Positions 1,024 to 61,495 of a stretch of 64,000 bases of DNA are shown in pieces. A model generated the notes under the pieces. That model was not told the origin of the DNA. It made no database searches and saw nothing but the letters and a program-made list of their open reading frames with translations. Position numbers and translations under genes: made by a program. The first letter of the stretch is position 1, and the number at the start of each line of letters is the position of its first letter. The DNA comes from Bacteroidota bacterium (GTDB lineage Bacteria > Bacteroidota > Bacteroidia > UKL13-3): positions 48,164 to 112,163 of the forward strand of contig JAIXSO010000053.1 in assembly GCA_027484685.1 (NCBI GenBank), in the 5' to 3' direction.

Positions 1024-2628
1024 ATGAACAAAACGACTTTGAGGAAATTAACAATTATAATATTCGGATTCCTGACTTGTTTAACCACTTATGGGCAAAC
1101 AATTTCTGAACGAATAATTCTAACTGATACTAAAGACTCGTTGTACTTAAATGCAAGTGAAAAATCTTTTGACGAGAAAGGAAATTACTGTTTTATAATC
1201 AAACAAAACGACAAGAAATATTTTGTTACTTCTAAAGAAAAAATTGGCGGCTTTGAATCTATTGGTTCTACTTGGGGAAAGAATGGTAAAATATTTTACA
1301 CAAACTCATATTCTGAACCGAAATACAAACCTTTTTATTATAAAAACGCAGAAGGTACAAAAGTATATGGAACAGCAATAGGAAAGATAGAAGGCTATCA
1401 GACAAGTAGAACCAAGGAAAATATAGCTATTGTTACTTCTTTAAATGATTCTGTTTATTATTATGTTAATGGCAAGTTACTTTTAAAAAAATTGAAAGAC
1501 CCTAATAAGTATTATGGTTTAGATGATGATTGGGTTTCGTTTAGTGAAAATGGTAATGTAATTTACTACCTTTATCAAGAAAATAATTACAAACTTTATG
1601 TAAATAAAATATTAATTGATAGTTCTGAATTTAGTTATACTCAGCTTGCTATCAACGATAATGGAAATTTTGTTTTTGCTAAAGGCAACAATCCAAAACA
1701 AAAAATTGGCAATTATGATTATATGTTTTTTATTCATACCAAGGATACCGTTCTTAATTACGTTAGGACAGTATGGGACTATGAGTTAAAAGAAAATGGT
1801 GCATACTATTACAGTGGAGACGATAATGGTCCAGCTTATATTGCTATAAATAACAAACTTTATAAGAACATAAATCATATTTCAAACATAACATTAATTG
1901 ACTGGAAAAATTTTATGTTCACCTATAGTGAAAATGGGAAAAACAAAATTAATGTAAGTGACAAAATATACTCATACGACTGTGATGAAATATTTTACCC
2001 AACACTTGATAAGGAAGGAAACTTTGCATTTTATGGACAGAAGAATTATTACATATTTAAATATATATATGGTAAAAAAGAAGATAAGCCTATTTCAAAA
2101 TATGGAGTTCGCCCAACACCACTTTACATAAGTCCAAAAGGTGAATCAATTCATTACTTTAAAACTGCCGATTCAATTTATATTCATCAAGACGATAAAC
2201 TTCTATTTAAAACCATTTCAAAAAAATCAAATTTCAAACTTCTACCACAAGATAAAATAATACCAAACAATTTTATTGGAAATAAAGCTGAAAATGGGAA
2301 CTCACTATTTTATATTGAATTTGATTCAAATGGTTACATAGTATTTAACGGTGCTTTTTCAAGGCCAATGATTCCAGCTAAAAATAGCTCTTACTCTGAA
2401 ACAAAAAAAATAGGTGAAATTGTGGCAGGAGAATTTAGCCACAATGGATTTTTTACAATCCAAAAAACAGGCAGTTCAAAATTCTTAATTAACGTAAACA
2501 ATCAAATTTTTAAAGAACTTGAAAATGTTGACGGTATTTTCAAAGACAATTGTTTTTTTAATGGCAAAGAATTGATTTTTTATGGGGTTAAAGGTTTATC
2601 TTTTTATCAATTTAAATTAACTATATGA
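1024..2628 (+). CDS. secreted repeat-rich hypothetical protein
   Basis: 534 aa. N-terminal signal peptide (LTIIIFGFLTCLTTYGQ). Periodic Y/F/G-rich beta-strand-like repeats. The stop overlaps the start of the next gene. Confidence 0.5.
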   Translation: MNKTTLRKLTIIIFGFLTCLTTYGQTISERIILTDTKDSLYLNASEKSFDEKGNYCFIIKQNDKKYFVTSKEKIGGFESIGSTWGKNGKIFYTNSYSEPKYKPFYYKNAEGTKVYGTAIGKIEGYQTSRTKENIAIVTSLNDSVYYYVNGKLLLKKLKDPNKYYGLDDDWVSFSENGNVIYYLYQENNYKLYVNKILIDSSEFSYTQLAINDNGNFVFAKGNNPKQKIGNYDYMFFIHTKDTVLNYVRTVWDYELKENGAYYYSGDDNGPAYIAINNKLYKNINHISNITLIDWKNFMFTYSENGKNKINVSDKIYSYDCDEIFYPTLDKEGNFAFYGQKNYYIFKYIYGKKEDKPISKYGVRPTPLYISPKGESIHYFKTADSIYIHQDDKLLFKTISKKSNFKLLPQDKIIPNNFIGNKAENGNSLFYIEFDSNGYIVFNGAFSRPMIPAKNSSYSETKKIGEIVAGEFSHNGFFTIQKTGSSKFLINVNNQIFKELENVDGIFKDNCFFNGKELIFYGVKGLSFYQFKLTI

Positions 2629-3293
2629 AAAAGCTACTCTTAATAATATTAACTCTAATTTGCTATTCTACAATAGCTCAAAAAATGCCCTCTGACTATT
2701 TTGACGAGTCAAGTAATTACTTTGAAAATGATAATTATGAAAAAGCACTTATAGGCTATCAATACATAATAGATAATTTCCCAAAAAATGAACTTTATCC
2801 AAAGTCTTATTACAATGTTGGATATATTTATTTCACCCAAAAGAAATTTGAAATGGCAATACCCGTATTCAAAACAATTCTTGAAAGTAACTTTAATGAA
2901 AAAGAAAATTTAGGTGGTAGCATTATGGAAGACCCTTACACGAATTATAGACACAAAGCAAGTGAAATTCTAAGTAACATTTATTACGAAAAAAAAATGT
3001 ATGATTCAGCTTTATTATTCTTGGCTTTGTCTGATACTGTATATCCTTATTTGAGTTTTTGTGGCAATGGATATGCTTCAAATTATATTCAAACAGCCTT
3101 GAAGTATTCTTCTATTTATCAAAAACTAAATCAGCCTGAAAAAGCAATTGAGTCATTGTTGCCAAATGTTTTTGCAACGCTCGCAAACAATACTAAAGTA
3201 ATTGAAGAGTTAAAGAAGTTGCTTGCAAACAAAAAGAATTTAAAGAAAGAACTTGATGAATCAATAAACAAAATATATTCAAAAAAATTATAA
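2625..3293 (+). CDS. secreted TPR-like protein
   Basis: 222 aa. Signal peptide (LLLIILTLICYSTIAQ). A/Y/L-rich helical repeats consistent with TPR. ATGA overlap with the upstream gene. Confidence 0.45.
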   Translation: MKKLLLIILTLICYSTIAQKMPSDYFDESSNYFENDNYEKALIGYQYIIDNFPKNELYPKSYYNVGYIYFTQKKFEMAIPVFKTILESNFNEKENLGGSIMEDPYTNYRHKASEILSNIYYEKKMYDSALLFLALSDTVYPYLSFCGNGYASNYIQTALKYSSIYQKLNQPEKAIESLLPNVFATLANNTKVIEELKKLLANKKNLKKELDESINKIYSKKL

Positions 3294-3592
3294 AAAACGA
3301 TTACTCATATACTAGGTATTATTTCAAGTTTCTTAATACCGAAATAACAGTTCCAAATAATTACGAAGACGAGAATAATAATTTCAAAAAAGAAAAAGCC
3401 ATTAAAGGTATTAGACAGACTGATTTTTATAAAATGATTCAAAAAATTTGAAAGCAAAAGTGAATGATATTGTTAACAAATCCCTTTCAGCGCTTACAAA
3501 TCAAAAGGTTTCTTCACATTCCGCTAATGCATGAGTTTATGGCTGGTAATAAAATAGCAAATAGTTAGCACTACAAAAAAATATCAAACAAC

Positions 3593-4222
3593 ATGTTGAA
3601 AACAATAACACTATTCATAACAATTACCATTGTGTTTAATTTAAATGGTCAAACGTTAGAAAAAGCAATCAAAGCCTTAAAGAATATAAACAATTTGAAT
3701 CAAATTGAAGCTTTGAAAAAAAAATATCCTAATTTGAATATTTACGTTGATAAAACAGTGTATTCTGATAGCATCAGATTTCCAGAAATCATAAAAGCTA
3801 AGGTGGGCGATGTTCTGCTTAAACAATATCATTCCGAGGAACCTACTTATGTAATAAAAATAGTAGCTGATAGAGATGAAGAATTTTGTAAACTAAAATA
3901 TATTTGCCTTAATTCAACGAAATTAACCAAAAAGGAGATTGATTCGTTAAGAACGGTAATAGAAAGTAAATATAAAAGTGGGATAGATTTTGATACACTT
4001 ATAAATGCATATAATATGGATAACTCCAGAGGGGAACTTGATTGGTTTTATACAGGAATGATGGTTGAAGAAATTGATAGTGCAGTTTTTAACAGAAAAA
4101 AGGGCGATATATTTACTGTTGACGTAAAAAAAACAAAATGGTTTTATATAATGCTAAAAACCCACGACAATAAAATGGAAAAAGCGAAAGTTGCTGTAAT
4201 GATTGAATATACTTTTAGTTAA
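3593..4222 (+). CDS. PpiC-type (parvulin) peptidyl-prolyl isomerase, secreted
   Basis: 209 aa with a signal peptide. The C-terminal motif GELDWFYTGMMVEEIDSAVFNRKKGDIFTV matches the parvulin PPIase signature. Confidence 0.5.
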   Translation: MLKTITLFITITIVFNLNGQTLEKAIKALKNINNLNQIEALKKKYPNLNIYVDKTVYSDSIRFPEIIKAKVGDVLLKQYHSEEPTYVIKIVADRDEEFCKLKYICLNSTKLTKKEIDSLRTVIESKYKSGIDFDTLINAYNMDNSRGELDWFYTGMMVEEIDSAVFNRKKGDIFTVDVKKTKWFYIMLKTHDNKMEKAKVAVMIEYTFS

Positions 4223-4380
4223 TTCCAATTCAGGAAATATTATTAGGATTCAAACCCCATAATTAAAGCAAGAAAATAAAATTGCAGTCAAGGAAAAATA
4301 TCGAAAACACATTGTTGGTATCATTTCTATAAAATAGAATCCCACACTCCACATTTTTGTCACTTCGAACTCCGAATTTA

Positions 4381-5619
4381 TTATTCCAAATCAGTATTCA
4401 GTTTGTAACGGCAAATACGGTTATTGCCTTTATCGGCTACATAAATCGTTTTACGGTTATAACAAATTCCCATTGGATCGTTAAAATTAAACGGACCATC
4501 AAGTGGTTTTCCATCGGCAGCTCTTCCGCCAAACGATACATTTACTTGCTTTCTAATGGTTGAATTTGCTGGAGGATTAACTCCTTCAAAACCTTGATTG
4601 GTAAATACATAAACCGAATCTGTTTCACTATCCACTACAAAAAAGTAGTTGGTAGCATCAGGAGCTATAAAACAATCTTCGGGTTTTTTAAACTTAAATG
4701 GCTCATACATAAAGCTATTGGCTTTCGAAATATCAAAATTCAATAAACTAGAAGTTTCGGTGTATTGTGTTCCTAAATCTGGATCGTCAACTACAGTAAT
4801 CAATAATGTTTTGTACTCTAAATTATTGGTTTGATTATTAGAGGTAATCATAAAGTTTTTAGAAGTACTCATACCTTGCAAACGCTGCGGAGGAGCCGAA
4901 AATGTGGCAATTCCTGAAATATCAATGGCTGTTTTTAAACCTGATTCTGTAGCATTTAATCCAATGGCATAACCAATATTGGTTCCTGTTGGGCTAAACA
5001 ATAAAACTGCATTATCTGGCCTAACAAATGTATTTTGCTGGTTACGAGGACCTTTTCTGGTAACATATAAAGTATTATCGCTTAAACAAGCTATACCCGT
5101 AAATTCAACTTCTTGGTCAGGTGCACCTCTAAACTGAGTACTTTGGCGCGATTCATCGCAAAACGGATGAATTAAAGTATCTACAAATTTATAGTTTCCT
5201 TGGCCTGTTCCTTCTAAATGGTAAACACAAGTTACAGTAGCATTTACAGTTGCATCAAACACTTTTCCAATTACATAAGTGTGTAATCTTCTGTCTTGTG
5301 TTACTTCTTTTGCGCCTGGTATGGCAATGGTATATGCCAATGTACCTTTTTGATCAAGCACATTTAGACCTTTGTCATCAACCACATATATCATCTCATC
5401 AAAACCCACATACACATCTACCGGATTTTGAAAACCTTTAAAAAACGGAAATACTGGTACATAACTAACTGCTTTTGGCACCAAGTTAGGATCAATTTGT
5501 CCTTGTTGTAATACTTCATCAACGGTATCATTTTGTTTGCTACCAAACACCGAACACGATGATATTAAACTAATTACAGCTACAGTTAAAAAAATATATT
5601 TTACAAAAGTTGATTTCAT
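4381..5619 (-). CDS. NHL-repeat lipoprotein
   Basis: 412 aa. Signal peptide plus lipobox (ISLISSCSV). The C-terminal NHL-like repeat (GICYNRKTIYVADKGNNRICRY) suggests a beta-propeller. There is a 7-nt gap to the upstream OM-protein gene, so they likely form an operon. Confidence 0.5.
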   Translation of the reverse strand: MKSTFVKYIFLTVAVISLISSCSVFGSKQNDTVDEVLQQGQIDPNLVPKAVSYVPVFPFFKGFQNPVDVYVGFDEMIYVVDDKGLNVLDQKGTLAYTIAIPGAKEVTQDRRLHTYVIGKVFDATVNATVTCVYHLEGTGQGNYKFVDTLIHPFCDESRQSTQFRGAPDQEVEFTGIACLSDNTLYVTRKGPRNQQNTFVRPDNAVLLFSPTGTNIGYAIGLNATESGLKTAIDISGIATFSAPPQRLQGMSTSKNFMITSNNQTNNLEYKTLLITVVDDPDLGTQYTETSSLLNFDISKANSFMYEPFKFKKPEDCFIAPDATNYFFVVDSETDSVYVFTNQGFEGVNPPANSTIRKQVNVSFGGRAADGKPLDGPFNFNDPMGICYNRKTIYVADKGNNRICRYKLNTDLE

Positions 5620-5626
5620 TTTTTAA

Positions 5627-6652
5627 TTATTTAATGGTAAATAATAAACCAATTCTATGAATATTGCCAATGCGCGATTTGCTCACCAAACCATAATCAA
5701 TACCAAAATTACCAAAACTACGAGGCAATTTAATTCCAAAACCTAAACTTGGAAAATTATTAGCTTCATCTAAGCCAAACTCCCAACCGCTGCGGCCATA
5801 AAGAATTTTTTTCCAGCTATACTCCACTCCTAGTCCTACTGTTTCGTTATTATCGGTTGGATGGTTTAATTGCGCAGCAGTAGTTAGTACGTGGGTTTTA
5901 TTGCTAATTGGGTCAATGGCAAAACCTAACCTAAATACAGCAGGTGCCGAAACTGGTGTAAAATCGTTTTTTTGAGTTTCGCCATTTAATTTTAAAATAG
6001 TAACACTTCCTGTTGGGGCCACATTCACGCCAAAATTAGAAAACGTAACTCCAAAACGTGAATTTTTGATACCAATATTATAAGTTAAACCTAAATCGAA
6101 AAGTACATTATTTACTGATACGTTTGCTATAACCTCTTGCGCAAATTTGGCTTGTAAACCAAAACTAAAACTATTGGTTAAAATTTTTGCAAAACTAACA
6201 CCTATAGAAGTGCTTCCCATCAAGACATTTCTGCCTGTTCCGTTTGGTTCAAACTCTGTTGTTTCTTTGGTATCGCCAAAGCCTAAACTCATTACATTTA
6301 CGCCCACATAACTTAATTTGCCAGCTTTAAAAGCCACCGCACCGTAATTTACTTGGCTATTGCCAAACCAACGTGTGTGCGAAAACTGCGCAGTTACTTT
6401 ACCTGTATCAATTCCGGTAATTCCCGCAGGATTCCAATACAAAGCGGCAGCATCGTTGGTTAACCCAACCACAGCACCACCCATTGCAGCCGAACGTGCA
6501 TCAGGAACAATTTTTAAAAACTGCATACCACTTCCTCCTGTGCGGCTATTACCAAAGGTTGGCAATATTTGTGCTTGCGCAAAAGAGGCAGTAATTAATA
6601 AAATATATAATAATTTGAATTTAAACTTCATTGTTTTATAAAAGCCGTGCAA
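5627..6652 (-). CDS. outer-membrane beta-barrel protein, PorV/PorQ (UPF0164-like) family, T9SS-associated
   Basis: 341 aa with a signal peptide. N-terminal motif FLKIVPDARSAAMGGAVVGLTNDAAALYWNPAGIT is characteristic of the PorV/PorQ family. Alternating hydrophobic beta-strands and a C-terminal aromatic residue. Confidence 0.5.
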   Translation of the reverse strand: MHGFYKTMKFKFKLLYILLITASFAQAQILPTFGNSRTGGSGMQFLKIVPDARSAAMGGAVVGLTNDAAALYWNPAGITGIDTGKVTAQFSHTRWFGNSQVNYGAVAFKAGKLSYVGVNVMSLGFGDTKETTEFEPNGTGRNVLMGSTSIGVSFAKILTNSFSFGLQAKFAQEVIANVSVNNVLFDLGLTYNIGIKNSRFGVTFSNFGVNVAPTGSVTILKLNGETQKNDFTPVSAPAVFRLGFAIDPISNKTHVLTTAAQLNHPTDNNETVGLGVEYSWKKILYGRSGWEFGLDEANNFPSLGFGIKLPRSFGNFGIDYGLVSKSRIGNIHRIGLLFTIK

Positions 6653-57646: not shown

Positions 57647-58456
57647 ATGCAAAATCCTTTAGTAAGCTTAATTACAGTTACTTATAATGCAGAAGCACTT
57701 CTTTACGATACATGGCAATCGGCTATTAACCAATCATTTAAAGATTTTGAACTCATTTTAGTAGATGGTGGCTCAAAAGATAGTACCTTAAAAATTGCTC
57801 AACAATTTACCAGTAATATAGGAACCATTATTTCGGAACCCGATAAAGGGATTTACGATGCCATGAATAAAGGCATAAAAGCAGCAAAAGGACAATGGGT
57901 TTATTTTTTAAATGCAGGCGATTCGTTTTACAATAACGAAGTGCTTGCTGATATTTTTAAAAACAATACTTTTAAAAACTGTGAACTTATTTATGCCAAA
58001 GTGCAAACGGTAAATGAACCAACTGGGGTCAACTATATAAATGGCAAACCAGTAAAATACAGCGATTTCTTTTCGCATTACCCTATTTGTCATCAAGCTA
58101 CCTTTACTCATAAAAATGCTTTTGAAAAAATAGGCTATTATAATACTAACTATAAATTGGTAGCTGATACTACTTGGTTTGCTTCATTTTTTAAAACTCA
58201 GCCTGAGAAAGCTTTTTATATAGATAAGGTTATTGCTTTTTACGATATTCAAGGTACCACTTACCATAAGCGTATGCTCGGATATAAGGAGTATATTCAT
58301 TATGGATGGAGCAATTTTCCACTAACAATTGCCATCAAAAATTGGTTGATGTATCCGGTAATTTGGCTAAAAGTAAAACTGATAAGAACTTTAACCAATA
58401 CTGCTATTTTTAAAGTTTATAGAAAGTTAAAGTTTGGGATAAAATTGGCTCAGTAA
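57647..58456 (+). CDS. family 2 glycosyltransferase
   Basis: 269 aa. SLITVTYNAEALL...VDGGSKDST is the GT2 signature. Confidence 0.85.
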   Translation: MQNPLVSLITVTYNAEALLYDTWQSAINQSFKDFELILVDGGSKDSTLKIAQQFTSNIGTIISEPDKGIYDAMNKGIKAAKGQWVYFLNAGDSFYNNEVLADIFKNNTFKNCELIYAKVQTVNEPTGVNYINGKPVKYSDFFSHYPICHQATFTHKNAFEKIGYYNTNYKLVADTTWFASFFKTQPEKAFYIDKVIAFYDIQGTTYHKRMLGYKEYIHYGWSNFPLTIAIKNWLMYPVIWLKVKLIRTLTNTAIFKVYRKLKFGIKLAQ

Positions 58457-58516: not shown

Positions 58517-58563
58517 AAAAATTAAGTTCGCCAAAACTAGTAAAAAAAGTGAGTTTTGGCGAA
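58517..58563. repeat. 46-bp direct repeat with 13-bp hairpin, copy 1 (downstream of the ATPase gene)
   Basis: aaaattaagttcgccaaaactagtaaaaaaagtgagttttggcgaact is identical to 59994-60040. The internal stem is gttcgccaaaact/agttttggcgaac. Confidence 0.9.
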
Positions 58564-58577
58564 CTATACAAATTTTA

Positions 58578-59990
58578 TCACTCAAATAAACAACTGATTT
58601 GTAAAGCGTTTTGAACCAGCTCAGCACTGTATTCATTTGGTTTAAGTCCAAAGGTAGTTAGCATTATTAAGTGTATATTTTTTCTTGTATCTGTTTCTTT
58701 TTGAAATTCATCTATTTTGTTTTTTAAGTTTAAATAATATTGTTTATCGATTGTAAAAGTTGAATTATAAAACTTCATTTCACACAGGTTTATAATGTTA
58801 TCATCTCTATCTATGAGTAAATCAATCTGTGCATTTTTATTAAACCAACTGCTGCTGGTTGAATAAACAGCATCAATGCGAAGCGCTTTTTTAATTTGAT
58901 AAATGTGTTTTAAGCAAATAGTTTCAAAACTAAAACCTGACCATGACGTATAAGTTTGTTTTTTAAATAATCGCTGCCAAGTTCCAACGCCTTCGGCTTT
59001 ATTAGGTTGTATAAACTTTAAATAAAAAAGCGAATATTCATCAGAAAGCCTGTAGAGTATCAACTGCTTTTTATTTTTATAATAAGCGTATTCACTTACA
59101 AAACCTGAAGCGATGAGTTCTTCTAGTTTTAGTGAAAAATCACCACCACTTGGAATACCACTTTGAGTTATCAAATCTTGTCGTGTAATGCCCTTTTTGC
59201 ATTTGGCCAAAGTTTTAACAATTATTCTGTGCTTTTCTGAATTATCAAACAAGGAAGTAAAAAGTTGATTGAACTCATTGTGTAAAACACCATCTTTATC
59301 AAAACACAATTGATCAATATTTTGAGCCACACTTAATCCTTTTTGAAGCTTATCAAGGTAATGCGGAACACCACCCATGGTCATATAAATTTGCAAAACA
59401 TCGTAATGCGAATATCGAATTCCTCTACTCTTTAAAAACGCATCGGTTTCGTTTAAATCAAAAGGTAATAGCCTAATTTTACGTGTAATTCTATTATGCA
59501 GTCCACCTTTATTATTCAAAATTTCTTTTACCATGTATGAAGCAGCCGAGCCACAAATTACCACAATTAAATCATCTCGTTTTGATGCATATTGGTTCCA
59601 AAAATTTTCAAATGCCATCAAAAATTTTGACCGTGGTGAAGCAAGCCAAGGAAACTCATCTATAAAAATTACTTTCTTTTTATTAGAGATTAGTTTGTTT
59701 AAATAATTTTCTAATTGTGTAAAAGCTGCTAACCAATTTTTGGGCGTATCAAAATTTGCTTTTTTATTTCGGGTGTTTAGCTCCTTTGTAAAATTTTGAA
59801 GTTGACTATTAGTAGTACCATGAAATAATCCTGCAATTTCAAAAACCAATTCTTTTTTAAAATATTCTCGAATAAGAAAAGTTTTACCAACTCGTCTTCT
59901 TCCATACACAGCAATTAACTCCGACTTATTATTTTGTTTTGCTGCTTCAAGAATATTAATCTCTGATATTCTGCCAATTAGTTTACTCAT
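58578..59990 (-). CDS. AAA+ ATP-binding protein (archaeal-ATPase/DUF234 family). The ORF extends to 60059 through the repeat.
   Basis: Walker A GRRRVGKTF and Walker B VIFIDEF, plus a C-terminal DUF234-like region. Start set at MSKLIG (59990). The preceding in-frame codons are the direct repeat. Confidence 0.7.
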   Translation of the reverse strand: MSKLIGRISEINILEAAKQNNKSELIAVYGRRRVGKTFLIREYFKKELVFEIAGLFHGTTNSQLQNFTKELNTRNKKANFDTPKNWLAAFTQLENYLNKLISNKKKVIFIDEFPWLASPRSKFLMAFENFWNQYASKRDDLIVVICGSAASYMVKEILNNKGGLHNRITRKIRLLPFDLNETDAFLKSRGIRYSHYDVLQIYMTMGGVPHYLDKLQKGLSVAQNIDQLCFDKDGVLHNEFNQLFTSLFDNSEKHRIIVKTLAKCKKGITRQDLITQSGIPSGGDFSLKLEELIASGFVSEYAYYKNKKQLILYRLSDEYSLFYLKFIQPNKAEGVGTWQRLFKKQTYTSWSGFSFETICLKHIYQIKKALRIDAVYSTSSSWFNKNAQIDLLIDRDDNIINLCEMKFYNSTFTIDKQYYLNLKNKIDEFQKETDTRKNIHLIMLTTFGLKPNEYSAELVQNALQISCLFE

Positions 59991-59993
59991 AAT

Positions 59994-60040
59994 AAAATTA
60001 AGTTCGCCAAAACTAGTAAAAAAAGTGAGTTTTGGCGAAC
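59994..60040. repeat. 46-bp direct repeat with 13-bp hairpin, copy 2 (upstream of the ATPase gene)
   Basis: Identical to copy 1. Confidence 0.9.
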
Positions 60041-60064
60041 TTAATTTTAAAAAAGACACTTTAA

Positions 60065-60583
60065 TTAACGACTTTTTTGCCTTTCGGCTTCTTTAAAAAT
60101 TTGTTTTAAAACTTCAAGTGATGCATTGAAATCTCTTATAAAAAACCAAGACATCGAATAAAAAGTAATAGTTAATGAGACTATAAAAATTGGAAACTTT
60201 GCGATAATTTCATATTGAATAGGTATTTTATTGAAAGGAAAAAGTACAGTAAAAAAAACAAACAACATGATTGTTCCTGCAATTAAACCAAATAAAATAC
60301 TAGGATAAGGATAGCAACTAATTTCAATTTCAGTATATCCATTCTCCAATTCTGTTGTTTCGCCATGAAAAAATATTTGCCCCTGCTTGTTCATAGATTT
60401 TTCATAGGTAAAATTTACATCAAATTGTTTTCCAGATGTATTGCCTTCTAGTCTTTTGCTATTAAAAATTGTCTTTAAAAATGAAGTTTCATGATTGATA
60501 TTATCATGAATGGCCTGCATAATTTGCGGAGAAGTTAAATTAACTTCGAAAACAACAATTCGGGGAAATAGATTGAAAAACAT
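60065..60583 (-). CDS. hypothetical membrane protein (soluble N-domain plus three C-terminal TM helices)
   Basis: 172 aa. It lies immediately upstream of the ATPase on the same strand. Confidence 0.4.
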   Translation of the reverse strand: MFFNLFPRIVVFEVNLTSPQIMQAIHDNINHETSFLKTIFNSKRLEGNTSGKQFDVNFTYEKSMNKQGQIFFHGETTELENGYTEIEISCYPYPSILFGLIAGTIMLFVFFTVLFPFNKIPIQYEIIAKFPIFIVSLTITFYSMSWFFIRDFNASLEVLKQIFKEAERQKSR

Positions 60584-60611
60584 AACTCAAAAATAAACTT
60601 TTAAGGCATAA

Positions 60612-60645
60612 AAAAACCGAAGCTTTTTAAACTTCGGTTTTTTAT
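60612..60645. terminator. bidirectional terminator after the dienelactone hydrolase gene
   Basis: aaaccgaagc-tttttaaa-cttcggttt, with A/T runs on both sides. Confidence 0.65.
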
Positions 60646-60658
60646 TATTTGGTAATTA

Positions 60659-61495
60659 TTATTTCAACTTCAATTTTAAAAATGCCAAAGCTTTTGCATG
60701 CGCATCGGCCGAAAACTCTTTATTAAACTTAGGATTACTAGGATTAGCAAAAGCATGGTCAGCATCGTAATTGTAAACAGTTAATTTCTTTTTAGCTTTT
60801 TTCATATTAGCTTCAAATGCTTTAACTAAATCAGCATTGATAAATTGGTCTTGTTTAGCAAAAATACCTAACACATCGCAATTCAAAGTTTTTAAACGCT
60901 CAATGCTTTTTTCTGGCATTCCGTAATACATTACACAAGCTTTTGCTTGTTTACTTTCTAATAAAGTACTTTGCAAACTCCAAGCGCCACCCATACACCA
61001 TCCAATTGTAGCAATGGCTTTATCGGTTCCAACTTTGGCTATTATTCCGTTTACTATAGCAGTAGCACGTTCTTGTTTTAAGCCCATCATTAATTTTTGT
61101 GCAGTTGGTACATCAGTAGCTAATTCACCATCATATAAATCAACAGCGTAAACGTCTACATCGCCCATTTCGGCAGCAAAAGTTTCAGCTTCTTGTTTAA
61201 TATAATCGTTTAATCCCCACCATTCATGAAAAACAAACAACACCTTTTTAGTTGGCTTACTTGCTTTTATATAATAAGCATTTCCATTTGAACCTTCTTT
61301 GGTGGCAAACGTAATCATTTCACCTTTTGGTTTTTCTAACTTAAAAGGTAAAGGTACTTCATGTTTAGATGCAAATTTTTCGTTCATGGCTAAGGCTGCA
61401 TTTTGACTGCTAACGGTTATTGCGCAACAGCTATTTTGTGATTTTGCAATAGTTACAGAAACAACTAATGCCATTGCTAATAATATTCTTTTCAT
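60659..61495 (-). CDS. dienelactone hydrolase-family protein, secreted
   Basis: 278 aa with a signal peptide. FHEWWGLNDY and GWCMGG are DLH motifs. Confidence 0.7.
   Translation of the reverse strand: MKRILLAMALVVSVTIAKSQNSCCAITVSSQNAALAMNEKFASKHEVPLPFKLEKPKGEMITFATKEGSNGNAYYIKASKPTKKVLFVFHEWWGLNDYIKQEAETFAAEMGDVDVYAVDLYDGELATDVPTAQKLMMGLKQERATAIVNGIIAKVGTDKAIATIGWCMGGAWSLQSTLLESKQAKACVMYYGMPEKSIERLKTLNCDVLGIFAKQDQFINADLVKAFEANMKKAKKKLTVYNYDADHAFANPSNPKFNKEFSADAHAKALAFLKLKLK

What the first reader, a model, noticed from the sequence alone, without database searches (positions are those of the whole stretch)
58517..60583. AAA+ (DUF234-type) ATPase gene precisely bracketed by identical 46-bp direct repeats that each carry a 13-bp hairpin, with an upstream small membrane protein
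The repeat aaaattaagttcgccaaaactagtaaaaaaagtgagttttggcgaact occurs 13 nt after the ATPase stop and immediately before its likely start codon (MSKLIG at 59990). The annotated longer ORF simply reads through the repeat. Each copy contains a perfect 13-bp stem. Identical direct repeats flanking one 1.4-kb gene suggest a cassette insertion, an att-like duplication, or duplicated terminators. The 172-aa three-TM protein just upstream on the same strand makes an ATPase + membrane protein pair, a common layout for conflict or defence modules. The ATPase family itself has no established function in bacteria.
Basis: partly seen in the sequence, partly recalled or inferred. Interest (0 to 1): 0.55.

Follow-up and report, generated by a model that had tools for sequence, protein, structure and literature searches.

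The report
Hairpin-bounded defence-candidate ATPase cassette
The repeats are real and are the two end-palindromes of a compact 1.5-kb cassette carrying a candidate anti-phage ATPase-nuclease gene (PDC-S27) that inserted between two resident genes; matching palindromes accompany this gene family in many bacteria and I found no description of them.

Summary
An exact 48-nt (not 46-nt) direct repeat lies at 58518-58565 and 59994-60041. The upstream copy is a perfect 22-bp-stem palindrome; the downstream copy has a 14-bp stem.

The gene is a full-length PADLOC PDC-S27 member. It combines an ORC/Cdc6-like AAA+ domain, a winged helix and a PD-(D/E)xK nuclease.

It is an insertion. Two sets of relatives carry the 172-aa gene directly next to the GT2 gene, with neither ATPase nor hairpin. 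A 90% nt-identical copy sits in an unrelated context, and homology stops at the hairpins.

The hairpins are not generic terminators or dispersed repeats.
- 128 of 146 homologous loci have an upstream palindrome.
- In the close subfamily most also have one just after the stop codon.
- Consensus arm is TTTATAAnTCGCCAAAACT.
- The arms co-vary, differ between paralogues in one locus, and overlap a Bacteroidota-type -7 promoter box.

The membrane protein is a resident neighbour, not a partner.

Best reading: a self-contained cassette bounded by its protein's own cognate DNA sites, a promoter/operator upstream and a second site downstream. How it moves is unresolved. This is a new variant of a known kind.

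The parts
59993..60049 (.). Upstream terminal palindrome: 22-bp perfect arms (TAAAATTAAGTTCGCCAAAACT) and a 13-nt loop that is T-rich on the gene strand. It ends 2 nt before the ATG.
   Evidence: (I4); family-wide counterpart
60008..60015 (-). TAGTTTTG at the loop/right-arm junction. It matches the Bacteroidota -7 promoter consensus TAnnTTTG (consensus recalled from my own knowledge). A TTCG lies 20 nt upstream in the left arm. This is a putative cassette promoter.
   Evidence: Read. The motif is present in nearly all close-subfamily upstream hairpins. Across the family it occurs on the sense strand in 64 of 128 and on the antisense strand in 23 of 128. Promoter function is inferred, not shown.
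58578..59990 (-). PDC-S27 / DUF234 ATPase gene, 470 aa. It has an AAA+ domain (Walker A GRRRVGKT, Walker B FIDEF), a winged helix, and a C-terminal PD-(D/E)xK-like domain (D390, E404-x-K406).
58518..58568 (.). Downstream terminal palindrome. Paired part is 58525-58565 (14-bp arms, same 13-nt loop). In gene orientation it starts TATAGTTCGCC as in relatives, and it lies 12 nt after the stop. Positions 58518-58565 are the 48 nt identical to the upstream copy.
58518..60054 (-). The inserted cassette as a whole, about 1.53 kb. It equals the segment homologous to L086 (90% nt) and is absent from the empty sites. The exact ends are uncertain by a few bases.
60065..60583 (-). Resident 172-aa membrane-protein gene. 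It is not part of the cassette and is present in relatives that lack the ATPase.
57647..58456 (+). Resident GT2 glycosyltransferase gene, convergent with the cassette. In the empty sites it lies 61-86 nt from the 172-aa gene.

Best explanation
The two 48-nt repeats are the upstream and downstream terminal palindromes of a compact cassette of about 1.53 kb. Its only gene is a PDC-S27-family protein: an ORC/Cdc6-like AAA+ ATPase, a winged helix and a PD-(D/E)xK nuclease.

Shown: the cassette was inserted into the short spacer between the convergent 172-aa membrane-protein gene and the GT2 gene.

Shown: the palindromes are family-specific cis elements that travel with the gene. Arms are 17-22 bp with consensus TTTATAAnTCGCCAAAACT, and the spacer is 11-23 nt.

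Inferred:
- They are the cognate double-stranded DNA sites of the cassette's own winged-helix/AAA+ protein.
- The upstream site overlaps the cassette's promoter (-7 box TAnnTTTG at the loop/right-arm junction) and acts as an autoregulatory operator.
- The downstream site, 0-12 nt after the stop, is a second binding site that also insulates the cassette.
- The perfect 48/48 identity in this genome reflects strong conservation, or homogenisation between the two ends, in this lineage. It is not a duplication of target DNA.

How the cassette is moved is not resolved. The confidence of 0.6 is for the whole statement: about 0.9 for the inserted-cassette part and about 0.5 for the binding-site/operator part.
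For: Family assignment:
- PADLOC PDC-S27, E 6.9e-194 over residues 1-469.
- Pfam ATPase_2 plus DUF234.
- AlphaFold model with pLDDT 81. Best fold matches are the PF01637 ATPase 2qen, archaeal Orc1/Cdc6 including the origin-DNA complex 2qby, and STAND NTPases.
- Conserved D390 and E404-x-K406 sit on consecutive strands of an alpha-beta-beta-beta-alpha-beta unit.

Insertion:
- Empty sites L166/L167 have 61 nt between the 171-aa gene and GT2.
- Empty sites L170-L175 have 86 nt between them, and their GT2 is 93% nt-identical to the window. No hairpin is present in either set.
- L168 and L169 are occupied at the same site.

Discrete unit:
- L086 (93% aa) matches the window only over 60054-58525 at 90% nt. 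Several kb of flank on each side are unrelated.
- In many other 80-95% identical pairs, homology stops about 55-70 nt before the ATG and 45-60 nt after the stop.

Family-wide element:
- An upstream hairpin of at least 11 pairs is present in 128 of 146 loci, and a downstream one in 72 of 148.
- In the close subfamily nearly all loci have both.
- In about 1 Mb of fetched DNA, motif-bearing hairpins lie almost only at ATPase gene ends. The window has only these two.
- The element is present in an isolate plasmid, Emticicia pEMTOL01.

Sequence-specific and cognate:
- Arms are more conserved than loops.
- Compensatory co-variation: 81.7% of cells are paired against 68.6% when shuffled and about 40% when slid. 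There are 202 double-change cells against 89, with 0 of 500 shuffles reaching the observed value.
- Two tandem paralogues in L125 are each flanked on both sides by their own arm type. Paralogues in one genome have different arms.

DNA-level rather than RNA-level element: there is no G-T versus A-C strand bias in stem mismatches.

Promoter overlap.
Against: - No binding, transcription-start or expression data exist. The operator role is inferred from position, symmetry, co-variation and the ORC-like fold.
- Co-variation of arms with the protein could be simple co-inheritance.
- The downstream palindrome is absent from about half of the wider family. Any role it has is therefore dispensable or specific to the subfamily.
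- The coincidence of cassette ends with the palindromes fits a role in mobility at least as well as a role in regulation.
- The -7 box is seen in only half of all upstream hairpins across the family.
Confidence: 0.6

Rival explanations
1. The cassette is an autonomous selfish element. The ATPase-nuclease recognises the terminal palindromes, which also form 17-22-bp terminal inverted repeats of the unit, and itself catalyses excision/insertion or homing.
For: - Homology between cassettes in unrelated contexts ends at the outer edges of the palindromes.
- The empty sites lack any hairpin.
- Arms are specific to each paralogue.
- Tandem cassettes, truncated copies and multiplied hairpins occur.
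- Many homologues sit on 1.7-3-kb contigs, and assemblies break at the hairpin.
- The closest solved sequence relative of the AAA+ core is the transposition ATPase TnsC, E 1.4e-5.
- A nuclease is on board.
- PDCs were defined by being found embedded inside other operons.
Against: - There is no consistent target-site duplication.
- No near-identical multi-copy cassettes were seen within one genome.
- The downstream palindrome is missing in about half of the wider family.
- As far as I know, no PD-(D/E)xK-plus-AAA+ single protein is a known transposase.
- ORC/STAND-like folds are typical of sensors and initiators.
Confidence: 0.15
2. The palindromes are simply strong bidirectional terminators or insulators carried with a potentially toxic gene. 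Their similarity across loci reflects shared descent of a horizontally spread cassette, not recognition by a protein.
For: - The stems are stable.
- One lies directly after the stop codon, and the other lies after the upstream gene's stop.
- In the window both are followed by T-rich sequence.
Against: - The terminator scan does not call them.
- Their loops are 11-23 nt, whereas the window's ordinary terminators have 3-8-nt loops and GC-rich stems.
- The arm sequence, not only the pairing, is conserved at 60-70% protein identity, while the loops drift.
- The upstream element carries an oriented -7 box.
- Other loci use ordinary GC-rich terminators in addition to these elements.
- There is no sense-strand G-U bias.
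Confidence: 0.12
3. The hairpins are recombination sites used in trans by a host enzyme. Candidates are an integron-integrase/attC-like system, Xer, or an IS200/IS605-type HUH transposase acting on folded single strands. The ATPase would then be passive cargo.
For: - The layout is hairpin-gene-hairpin, with both hairpins in the same orientation in this lineage.
- There is no clear target duplication.
- Cassette arrays exist.
- GCCAAAAC/GTTTTGGC faintly recalls the attC consensus as I recall it (R''/R' boxes RYYYAAC/GTTRRRY).
Against: - Arm type follows the ATPase paralogue, not the host. Two types sit side by side in L125, and different types occur within one genome.
- The stems are perfect and lack extrahelical bases. 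The outer ends are TATAA, not R'/R'' boxes.
- Only ATPase genes were seen between such hairpins.
- No recombinase gene is called within about 5 kb in the window.
- Loop orientation flips between loci.
Confidence: 0.08
4. The ATPase and the upstream 172-aa membrane protein form a two-gene conflict or defence module.
For: The two genes are on the same strand and 74 nt apart. There is a weak PADLOC hit, PDC-M39A at E 6e-4.
Against: - The 172-aa gene is kept with DLH and GT2 in relatives that lack the ATPase.
- The ATPase cassette has unrelated neighbours elsewhere.
- A 22-bp-stem hairpin and a putative promoter separate the two genes.
Confidence: 0.02

Closest known systems
PADLOC phage-defence candidate PDC-S27 (Pfam ATPase_2 PF01637 + DUF234 PF03008; COG1672)
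   Same: There is a full-length HMM match. The domain make-up is the one described for the family: an ATPase fused to a PD-(D/E)xK nuclease (PMC12988326; PMC3424549). It is single-gene and patchily distributed, and occurs on plasmids and a few phages.
   Different: The papers I could search do not mention flanking palindromes or a discrete cassette structure. Defence activity of PDC-S27 is still untested according to PMC12988326.
Archaeal Orc1/Cdc6 initiators and their origin recognition boxes
   Same: Both have an AAA+ plus winged-helix fold. Inverted repeats flanking an A/T-rich spacer lie next to the protein's own gene. The archaeal origin layout is from my own knowledge.
   Different: This protein has a C-terminal nuclease. 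The spacer is only 11-23 nt, with no plausible unwinding element. The gene is accessory and mobile, so nothing suggests replication.
Autoregulated defence operons with a winged-helix repressor binding an upstream inverted repeat (BrxR/CapW type)
   Same: A dyad-symmetric site overlaps the promoter of a defence (candidate) gene.
   Different: Here the putative DNA-binding domain is part of the effector protein itself. A second copy of the site also follows the stop codon. This comparison rests on my own knowledge and was not tested here.
Integron gene cassettes (ORF + attC hairpin) and IS200/IS605 elements (subterminal hairpins)
   Same: Both are compact, hairpin-delimited units that are inserted without an obvious target duplication and can form arrays.
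   Different: These hairpins have no attC-type boxes or extrahelical bases. The unit carries no integrase or HUH transposase. The hairpin sequence is tied to one cargo family.

Membership tests
PDC-S27 (PADLOC) | Full-length match to the PDC-S27 profile | tested here: met
   PDLC04984, E 6.9e-194, residues 1-469 against profile positions 1-473 of 474
PDC-S27 (PADLOC) | P-loop ATPase fused to a PD-(D/E)xK nuclease, with catalytic motifs intact | tested here: met
   Walker A G30-T37, Walker B D111/E112, and D390, E404, K406 are invariant in 33 homologues. The alpha-beta-beta-beta-alpha-beta topology is present in the model.
PDC-S27 (PADLOC) | Protects against phage | not testable with these tools
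   Needs phage challenge assays. The literature states that validation is pending.
Integron cassette / attC | Outer R''/R' boxes (RYYYAAC ... GTTRRRY; consensus recalled from my own knowledge), imperfect stem with extrahelical bases | tested here: not met
   The outer arms are TTTATAA/TTATAAA and the stems are perfect in the window. No attC covariance model was available.
Integron cassette / attC | Diverse cargo genes between sites; integrase nearby | tested here: not met
   Only ATPase genes lie between such hairpins in about 1 Mb of loci. The neighbours in the window are GT2, DLH, ATP synthase genes and membrane proteins.
IS200/IS605-type element | Encodes a HUH (Y1) transposase and/or TnpB | tested here: not met
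   The single ORF is the AAA+/nuclease protein.
IS200/IS605-type element | Subterminal hairpins at both ends and no target duplication | tested here: inconclusive
   Hairpins at both ends are present. There is no general duplication. T-runs on both sides in the window and in L168 leave a duplication of about 8 bp possible.
REP/BIME or MITE-type dispersed repeat | Many copies at unrelated intergenic sites | tested here: not met
   There are 2 copies in 64 kb. The hairpins are confined to ATPase gene ends in the fetched loci. The whole source genome could not be scanned.
Intrinsic (rho-independent) terminator | Short GC-rich stem, 3-8-nt loop, U-tract | tested here: not met
   The scan does not call them. 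Their loop is 13 nt, and the window's own terminators look different.
Orc1/Cdc6-type initiator with origin boxes | AAA+ plus winged-helix fold | tested here: met
   Foldseek hits 2qby, 1w5t and 1fnn at E 1e-8 to 3e-7
Orc1/Cdc6-type initiator with origin boxes | Binds its repeats and initiates replication | not testable with these tools
The accessory distribution argues against it.

The most novel reading that the evidence does not exclude
PDC-S27 cassettes are a previously unrecognised kind of autonomous single-gene mobile element. An ORC-like AAA+/winged-helix protein with a PD-(D/E)xK nuclease recognises its own palindromic ends and moves, or homes, the 1.5-kb unit. This would explain why the family is found 'embedded' inside other defence operons, and it would question part of its 'defence' label.
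Probability: 0.15. Interest if true: 0.85.

Novelty: new variant of a known kind. Interest (0 to 1): 0.6.

Why it matters
PDC-S27 is reported as one of the most prevalent candidate defence genes in bacteria and archaea (PMC12988326), yet its mechanism is unknown.

A conserved, paralogue-specific palindrome at one or both ends of the gene gives three things:
- a concrete, testable DNA ligand for the protein;
- a likely promoter/operator;
- exact cassette borders.

It also offers a mechanistic reason for the 'embedding' that led to the family being called a defence candidate. It raises the question of whether these genes are defence genes, selfish elements, or both.

On the practical side, the palindromes explain why gene callers over-extend the ORF and why assemblies break at these loci.

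Tried and rejected
- Exact-protein look-ups of the ATPase (470-aa and 493-aa versions) found nothing.
- P0001, the 94% identical homologue, had no retrievable DNA.
- Rfam at E <= 1 gave only sub-threshold chance hits on the hairpins.
- NCBIfam has no model for either protein.
- A viral-contig scan for TTCGCCAAAA-N(9-25)-TTTTGGCGA gave 17 unrelated hits and no ATPase.
- A general test for target-site duplication or inverted flanks at the hairpin borders did not differ from mismatched controls.
- I tested for strand-biased G-T wobbles as a sign of an RNA structure and found none.
Genome-wide copy number of the hairpin and of paralogues therefore could not be determined.
- The word-start literature search for DUF234 was swamped by DUF2345. 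The whole-word search gave two papers.
- I considered type III toxin-antitoxin-like repeat RNA because of the three tandem hairpins in L149. I rejected it because single hairpins are the rule.
Full report
**1. Observation**

The repeat is real. An exact 48-nt direct repeat lies at 58518-58565 and 59994-60041, with a spacing of 1476 nt. No further copy exists in the window even at 3 mismatches, and none appears in 100 shuffles.

In fact the shared segment contains a 14-bp stem with a 13-nt loop. The upstream copy extends to a perfect 22-bp stem (59993-60049), with dG -29.6 kcal/mol and z -7.7. The downstream copy gives dG -21.8 and z -5.0.

The downstream copy ends 12 nt after the ATPase stop. 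The upstream copy ends 2-3 nt before the ATG at 59990. Homologues are 469-471 aa and start MxKLIGR. The 470-aa reading is therefore right, and the 493-aa ORF that runs through the hairpin is an over-extension.

**2. The gene**

Pfam finds ATPase_2 plus DUF234. PADLOC gives a full-length match to PDC-S27 at E 6.9e-194.

PDC-S27 is a single-gene phage-defence candidate described as an ATPase fused to a PD-(D/E)xK nuclease. It is abundant in bacteria and archaea, and experimental validation is still pending (PMC12988326). DUF234 is listed as PD-(D/E)xK in PMC3424549.

Walker A, Walker B and D390/E404-x-K406 are invariant in 33 homologues. An AlphaFold model (pLDDT 81, pTM 0.81) best matches three groups:
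- the PF01637 ATPase 2qen;
- archaeal Orc1/Cdc6, including the origin-DNA complex 2qby;
- STAND NTPases.

The C-terminal part has the alpha-beta-beta-beta-alpha-beta order expected of the nuclease fold, with D390 and E404/K406 on adjacent strands. The nearest solved sequence relative of the AAA+ core is TnsC at E 1.4e-5. The 172-aa neighbour has no Pfam or NCBIfam match.

**3. It is an insertion**

Homologues of the 172-aa protein identify close relatives.
- In L166/L167 (89% aa), the 171-aa gene is followed after 61 nt by the convergent GT2 gene.
- In L170-L175 (74% aa; GT2 93% nt-identical to the window), the gap is 86 nt.
- Neither set has an ATPase or any hairpin.
- L168 and L169 carry the ATPase at the same site.

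Occupied and empty states are interleaved among relatives whose flanks are 80-93% identical.

The empty sequence reads TAA-TTAAATTGTTTTATTTTTTAATTAATTTCTAAATATCAA. In the window, the left flank ends ...GTGTCTTTTTT before the palindrome. The right flank resumes TAATTTTTTACATATTTCTAAATATCAA.

A T-run therefore sits on both sides, in the window and in L168. A T-rich duplication of about 8 bp cannot be excluded here. It is not seen in L086, and a general test is negative. The 7 nt (TAATTTT) that stretch the window's repeat beyond the hairpin core may come from this target.

**4. A discrete unit**

L086 encodes a 93% identical protein on a 250-kb metagenome contig. It matches the window only from 60054 to 58525 at 90% nt, which is hairpin to hairpin. 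About 4-5.5 kb on each side is unrelated.

Among 165 loci with homologues, many pairs 80-95% identical in the gene lie in unrelated contexts. Their homology stops about 55-70 nt before the ATG and 45-60 nt after the stop.

Assemblies break here too. L001, which has an identical 172-aa gene, ends inside the hairpin loop. L002, L004 and L005 end 102 nt upstream of their gene. Many homologues sit on 1.7-3-kb contigs.

**5. The hairpins belong to the gene family**

An upstream hairpin of at least 11 pairs within 130 nt of the start occurs in 128 of 146 non-identical loci. A downstream one occurs in 72 of 148. In 34 of the 63 loci that have both, the two share an arm 9-mer.

In the close subfamily (60% aa identity or more) almost all loci have both. 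The upstream hairpin lies 2-17 nt before the ATG, and the downstream one 0-12 nt after the stop. Sometimes the TAA stop codon forms the first bases of the arm.

The anchored consensus is nnTTTATAATTCGCCAAAACT ... AnTTTTGGCGAnnTATAAnnn. In about 1 Mb of fetched DNA, motif-bearing hairpins are essentially confined to ATPase gene ends. The window holds only these two, and its ordinary terminators have 3-8-nt loops.

The element is also present upstream of the gene on an isolate plasmid, Emticicia pEMTOL01, so it is not a metagenome artefact. Rfam has no matching family.

**6. Sequence-specific and cognate**

Arms are better conserved than loops or spacers at 60-70% protein identity. At larger distances the arms change, but they stay complementary:
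- 81.7% of cells are paired, against 68.6% in shuffles and about 40% when the partner is slid;
- there are 202 double-change cells against 89;
- 0 of 500 shuffles reach the observed value;
- pair 12/36 is CG 40, AU 16, UA 12 and never unpaired.

The CCAAA/TTTGG columns are invariant by construction of that alignment.

In L125, two tandem paralogues are each flanked on both sides by their own arm type, ACTACTTTAAC for one and CGCCAAAAGT for the other. Paralogues within one MAG also differ. Stem mismatches show no G-T versus A-C strand bias (43 vs 47). This argues for a DNA-level dyad, or either-strand hairpin, rather than an RNA structure.

**7. Promoter overlap**

In nearly every close-subfamily upstream element, the loop ends in TA just before nnTTTG of the right arm. 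That gives TAnnTTTG, which is the Bacteroidota -7 consensus (consensus recalled from my own knowledge). Examples are TAGTTTTG in the window at 60008-60015, and TAATTTTG, TACTTTTG and TACATTTG elsewhere.

Across the family the motif is on the sense strand in 64 of 128 and on the antisense strand in 23 of 128. Downstream elements mostly lack the TA. A transcript starting a few bases further on would not contain the hairpin. Promoter function is inferred, not shown.

In the window lineage (window, L168, L086), the upstream and downstream elements are nearly identical, loop included. They are more conserved between genomes than the gene is: 0-1 change in 44-48 nt, against 90% identity in the gene.

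**8. Interpretation**

Shown:
- the ATPase is a mobile accessory cassette bounded by family-specific palindromes;
- the membrane protein and GT2 are resident genes.

Inferred: the palindromes are the cognate sites of the cassette's ORC-like winged-helix/AAA+ protein. The upstream site would be a promoter/operator and the downstream site a second binding site and insulator.

Rivals are listed with their tests:
- self-mobilisation by the ATPase-nuclease;
- trans-acting recombination (attC- or IS200-like);
- plain terminators;
- a two-gene module with the membrane protein, which the synteny contradicts.

**9. What is known**

The gene family is known as a candidate. The literature I could search says nothing about flanking palindromes or cassette borders.

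PDCs were nominated because they are found embedded in RM, BREX or DISARM operons (bioRxiv 10.1101/2024.01.29.577857). A discrete, insertable cassette gives that embedding a physical basis.

**10. Verdict**

- Observation: confirmed.
It is a cassette insertion. It is not a target duplication, not generic terminators, and not a pair with the membrane protein.
- Novelty: a new variant of a known kind.
- Interest: 0.6. The most novel reading that remains open is an autonomous hairpin-ended single-gene element (probability about 0.15).

Noticed in passing
L125 2180-5520: Two tandem PDC-S27 paralogues (2337-3740 and 4001-5407). Each is flanked on both sides by its own palindrome type (ACTACTTTAAC vs CGCCAAAAGT), forming a small cassette array.
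   Followed up: partly
L123 1764-2183; L122 4617-4847: Truncated second copies of the ATPase (C-terminal or middle fragments, 38-51% identity to the query) lie just downstream of a full-length cassette.
   Followed up: no
L149 3793-4000; also L019 2715-2765, L022 2813-2874, L116 3718-3766, L156 3793-3844: Extra copies of the cognate hairpin lie upstream of the gene. L149 has three tandem copies about 80 nt apart. The other loci have a second copy about 100-290 nt upstream, with no ORF between the two.
   Followed up: partly
L187 4943-4976 and ORF 4986-6122: A viral contig has a similar-looking hairpin (TTCGCCAAAA...TTTTGGCGAA) directly upstream of a 378-aa ORF that, by eye, looks like a TnpB/IS605 OrfB protein with a CPKCGH zinc finger. 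This is probably a coincidental sequence match.
   Followed up: no
L194 (Wolbachia phage WO, MN180249.1) 2220-2490: A 40% identical homologue sits among phage head genes. It is preceded by two direct repeats, each containing ACCGCGG...CCGCGGT inverted arms.
   Followed up: no
window 60611-60643: An ordinary bidirectional terminator (aaaaaaccgaagctt-TTT-aaacttcggtttttt) lies between the DLH gene and the 172-aa gene. It drew sub-threshold Rfam sRNA hits (STnc240, 39.6 bits against a cutoff of 55).
   Followed up: partly
window 58578-60059: The longest ORF (493 aa, GTG start) translates through the upstream palindrome. A gene caller that picks this longest ORF would over-extend the gene by 23 codons.
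   Followed up: yes
L166 5740-5937 vs window 60659-61495: The closest empty-site relative (L166/L167) has Por_Secre_tail and PID_CTERM genes upstream of the 171-aa gene, instead of the DLH gene seen in the window, L168 and L170. The left flank is therefore also rearranged among relatives.
   Followed up: no
window 60065-60583: By eye, the 172-aa protein has two C-terminal hydrophobic helices (about residues 93-115 and 129-148) after a soluble N-terminal half of about 90 aa. It is restricted to a few close relatives (12 database hits).
   Followed up: partly
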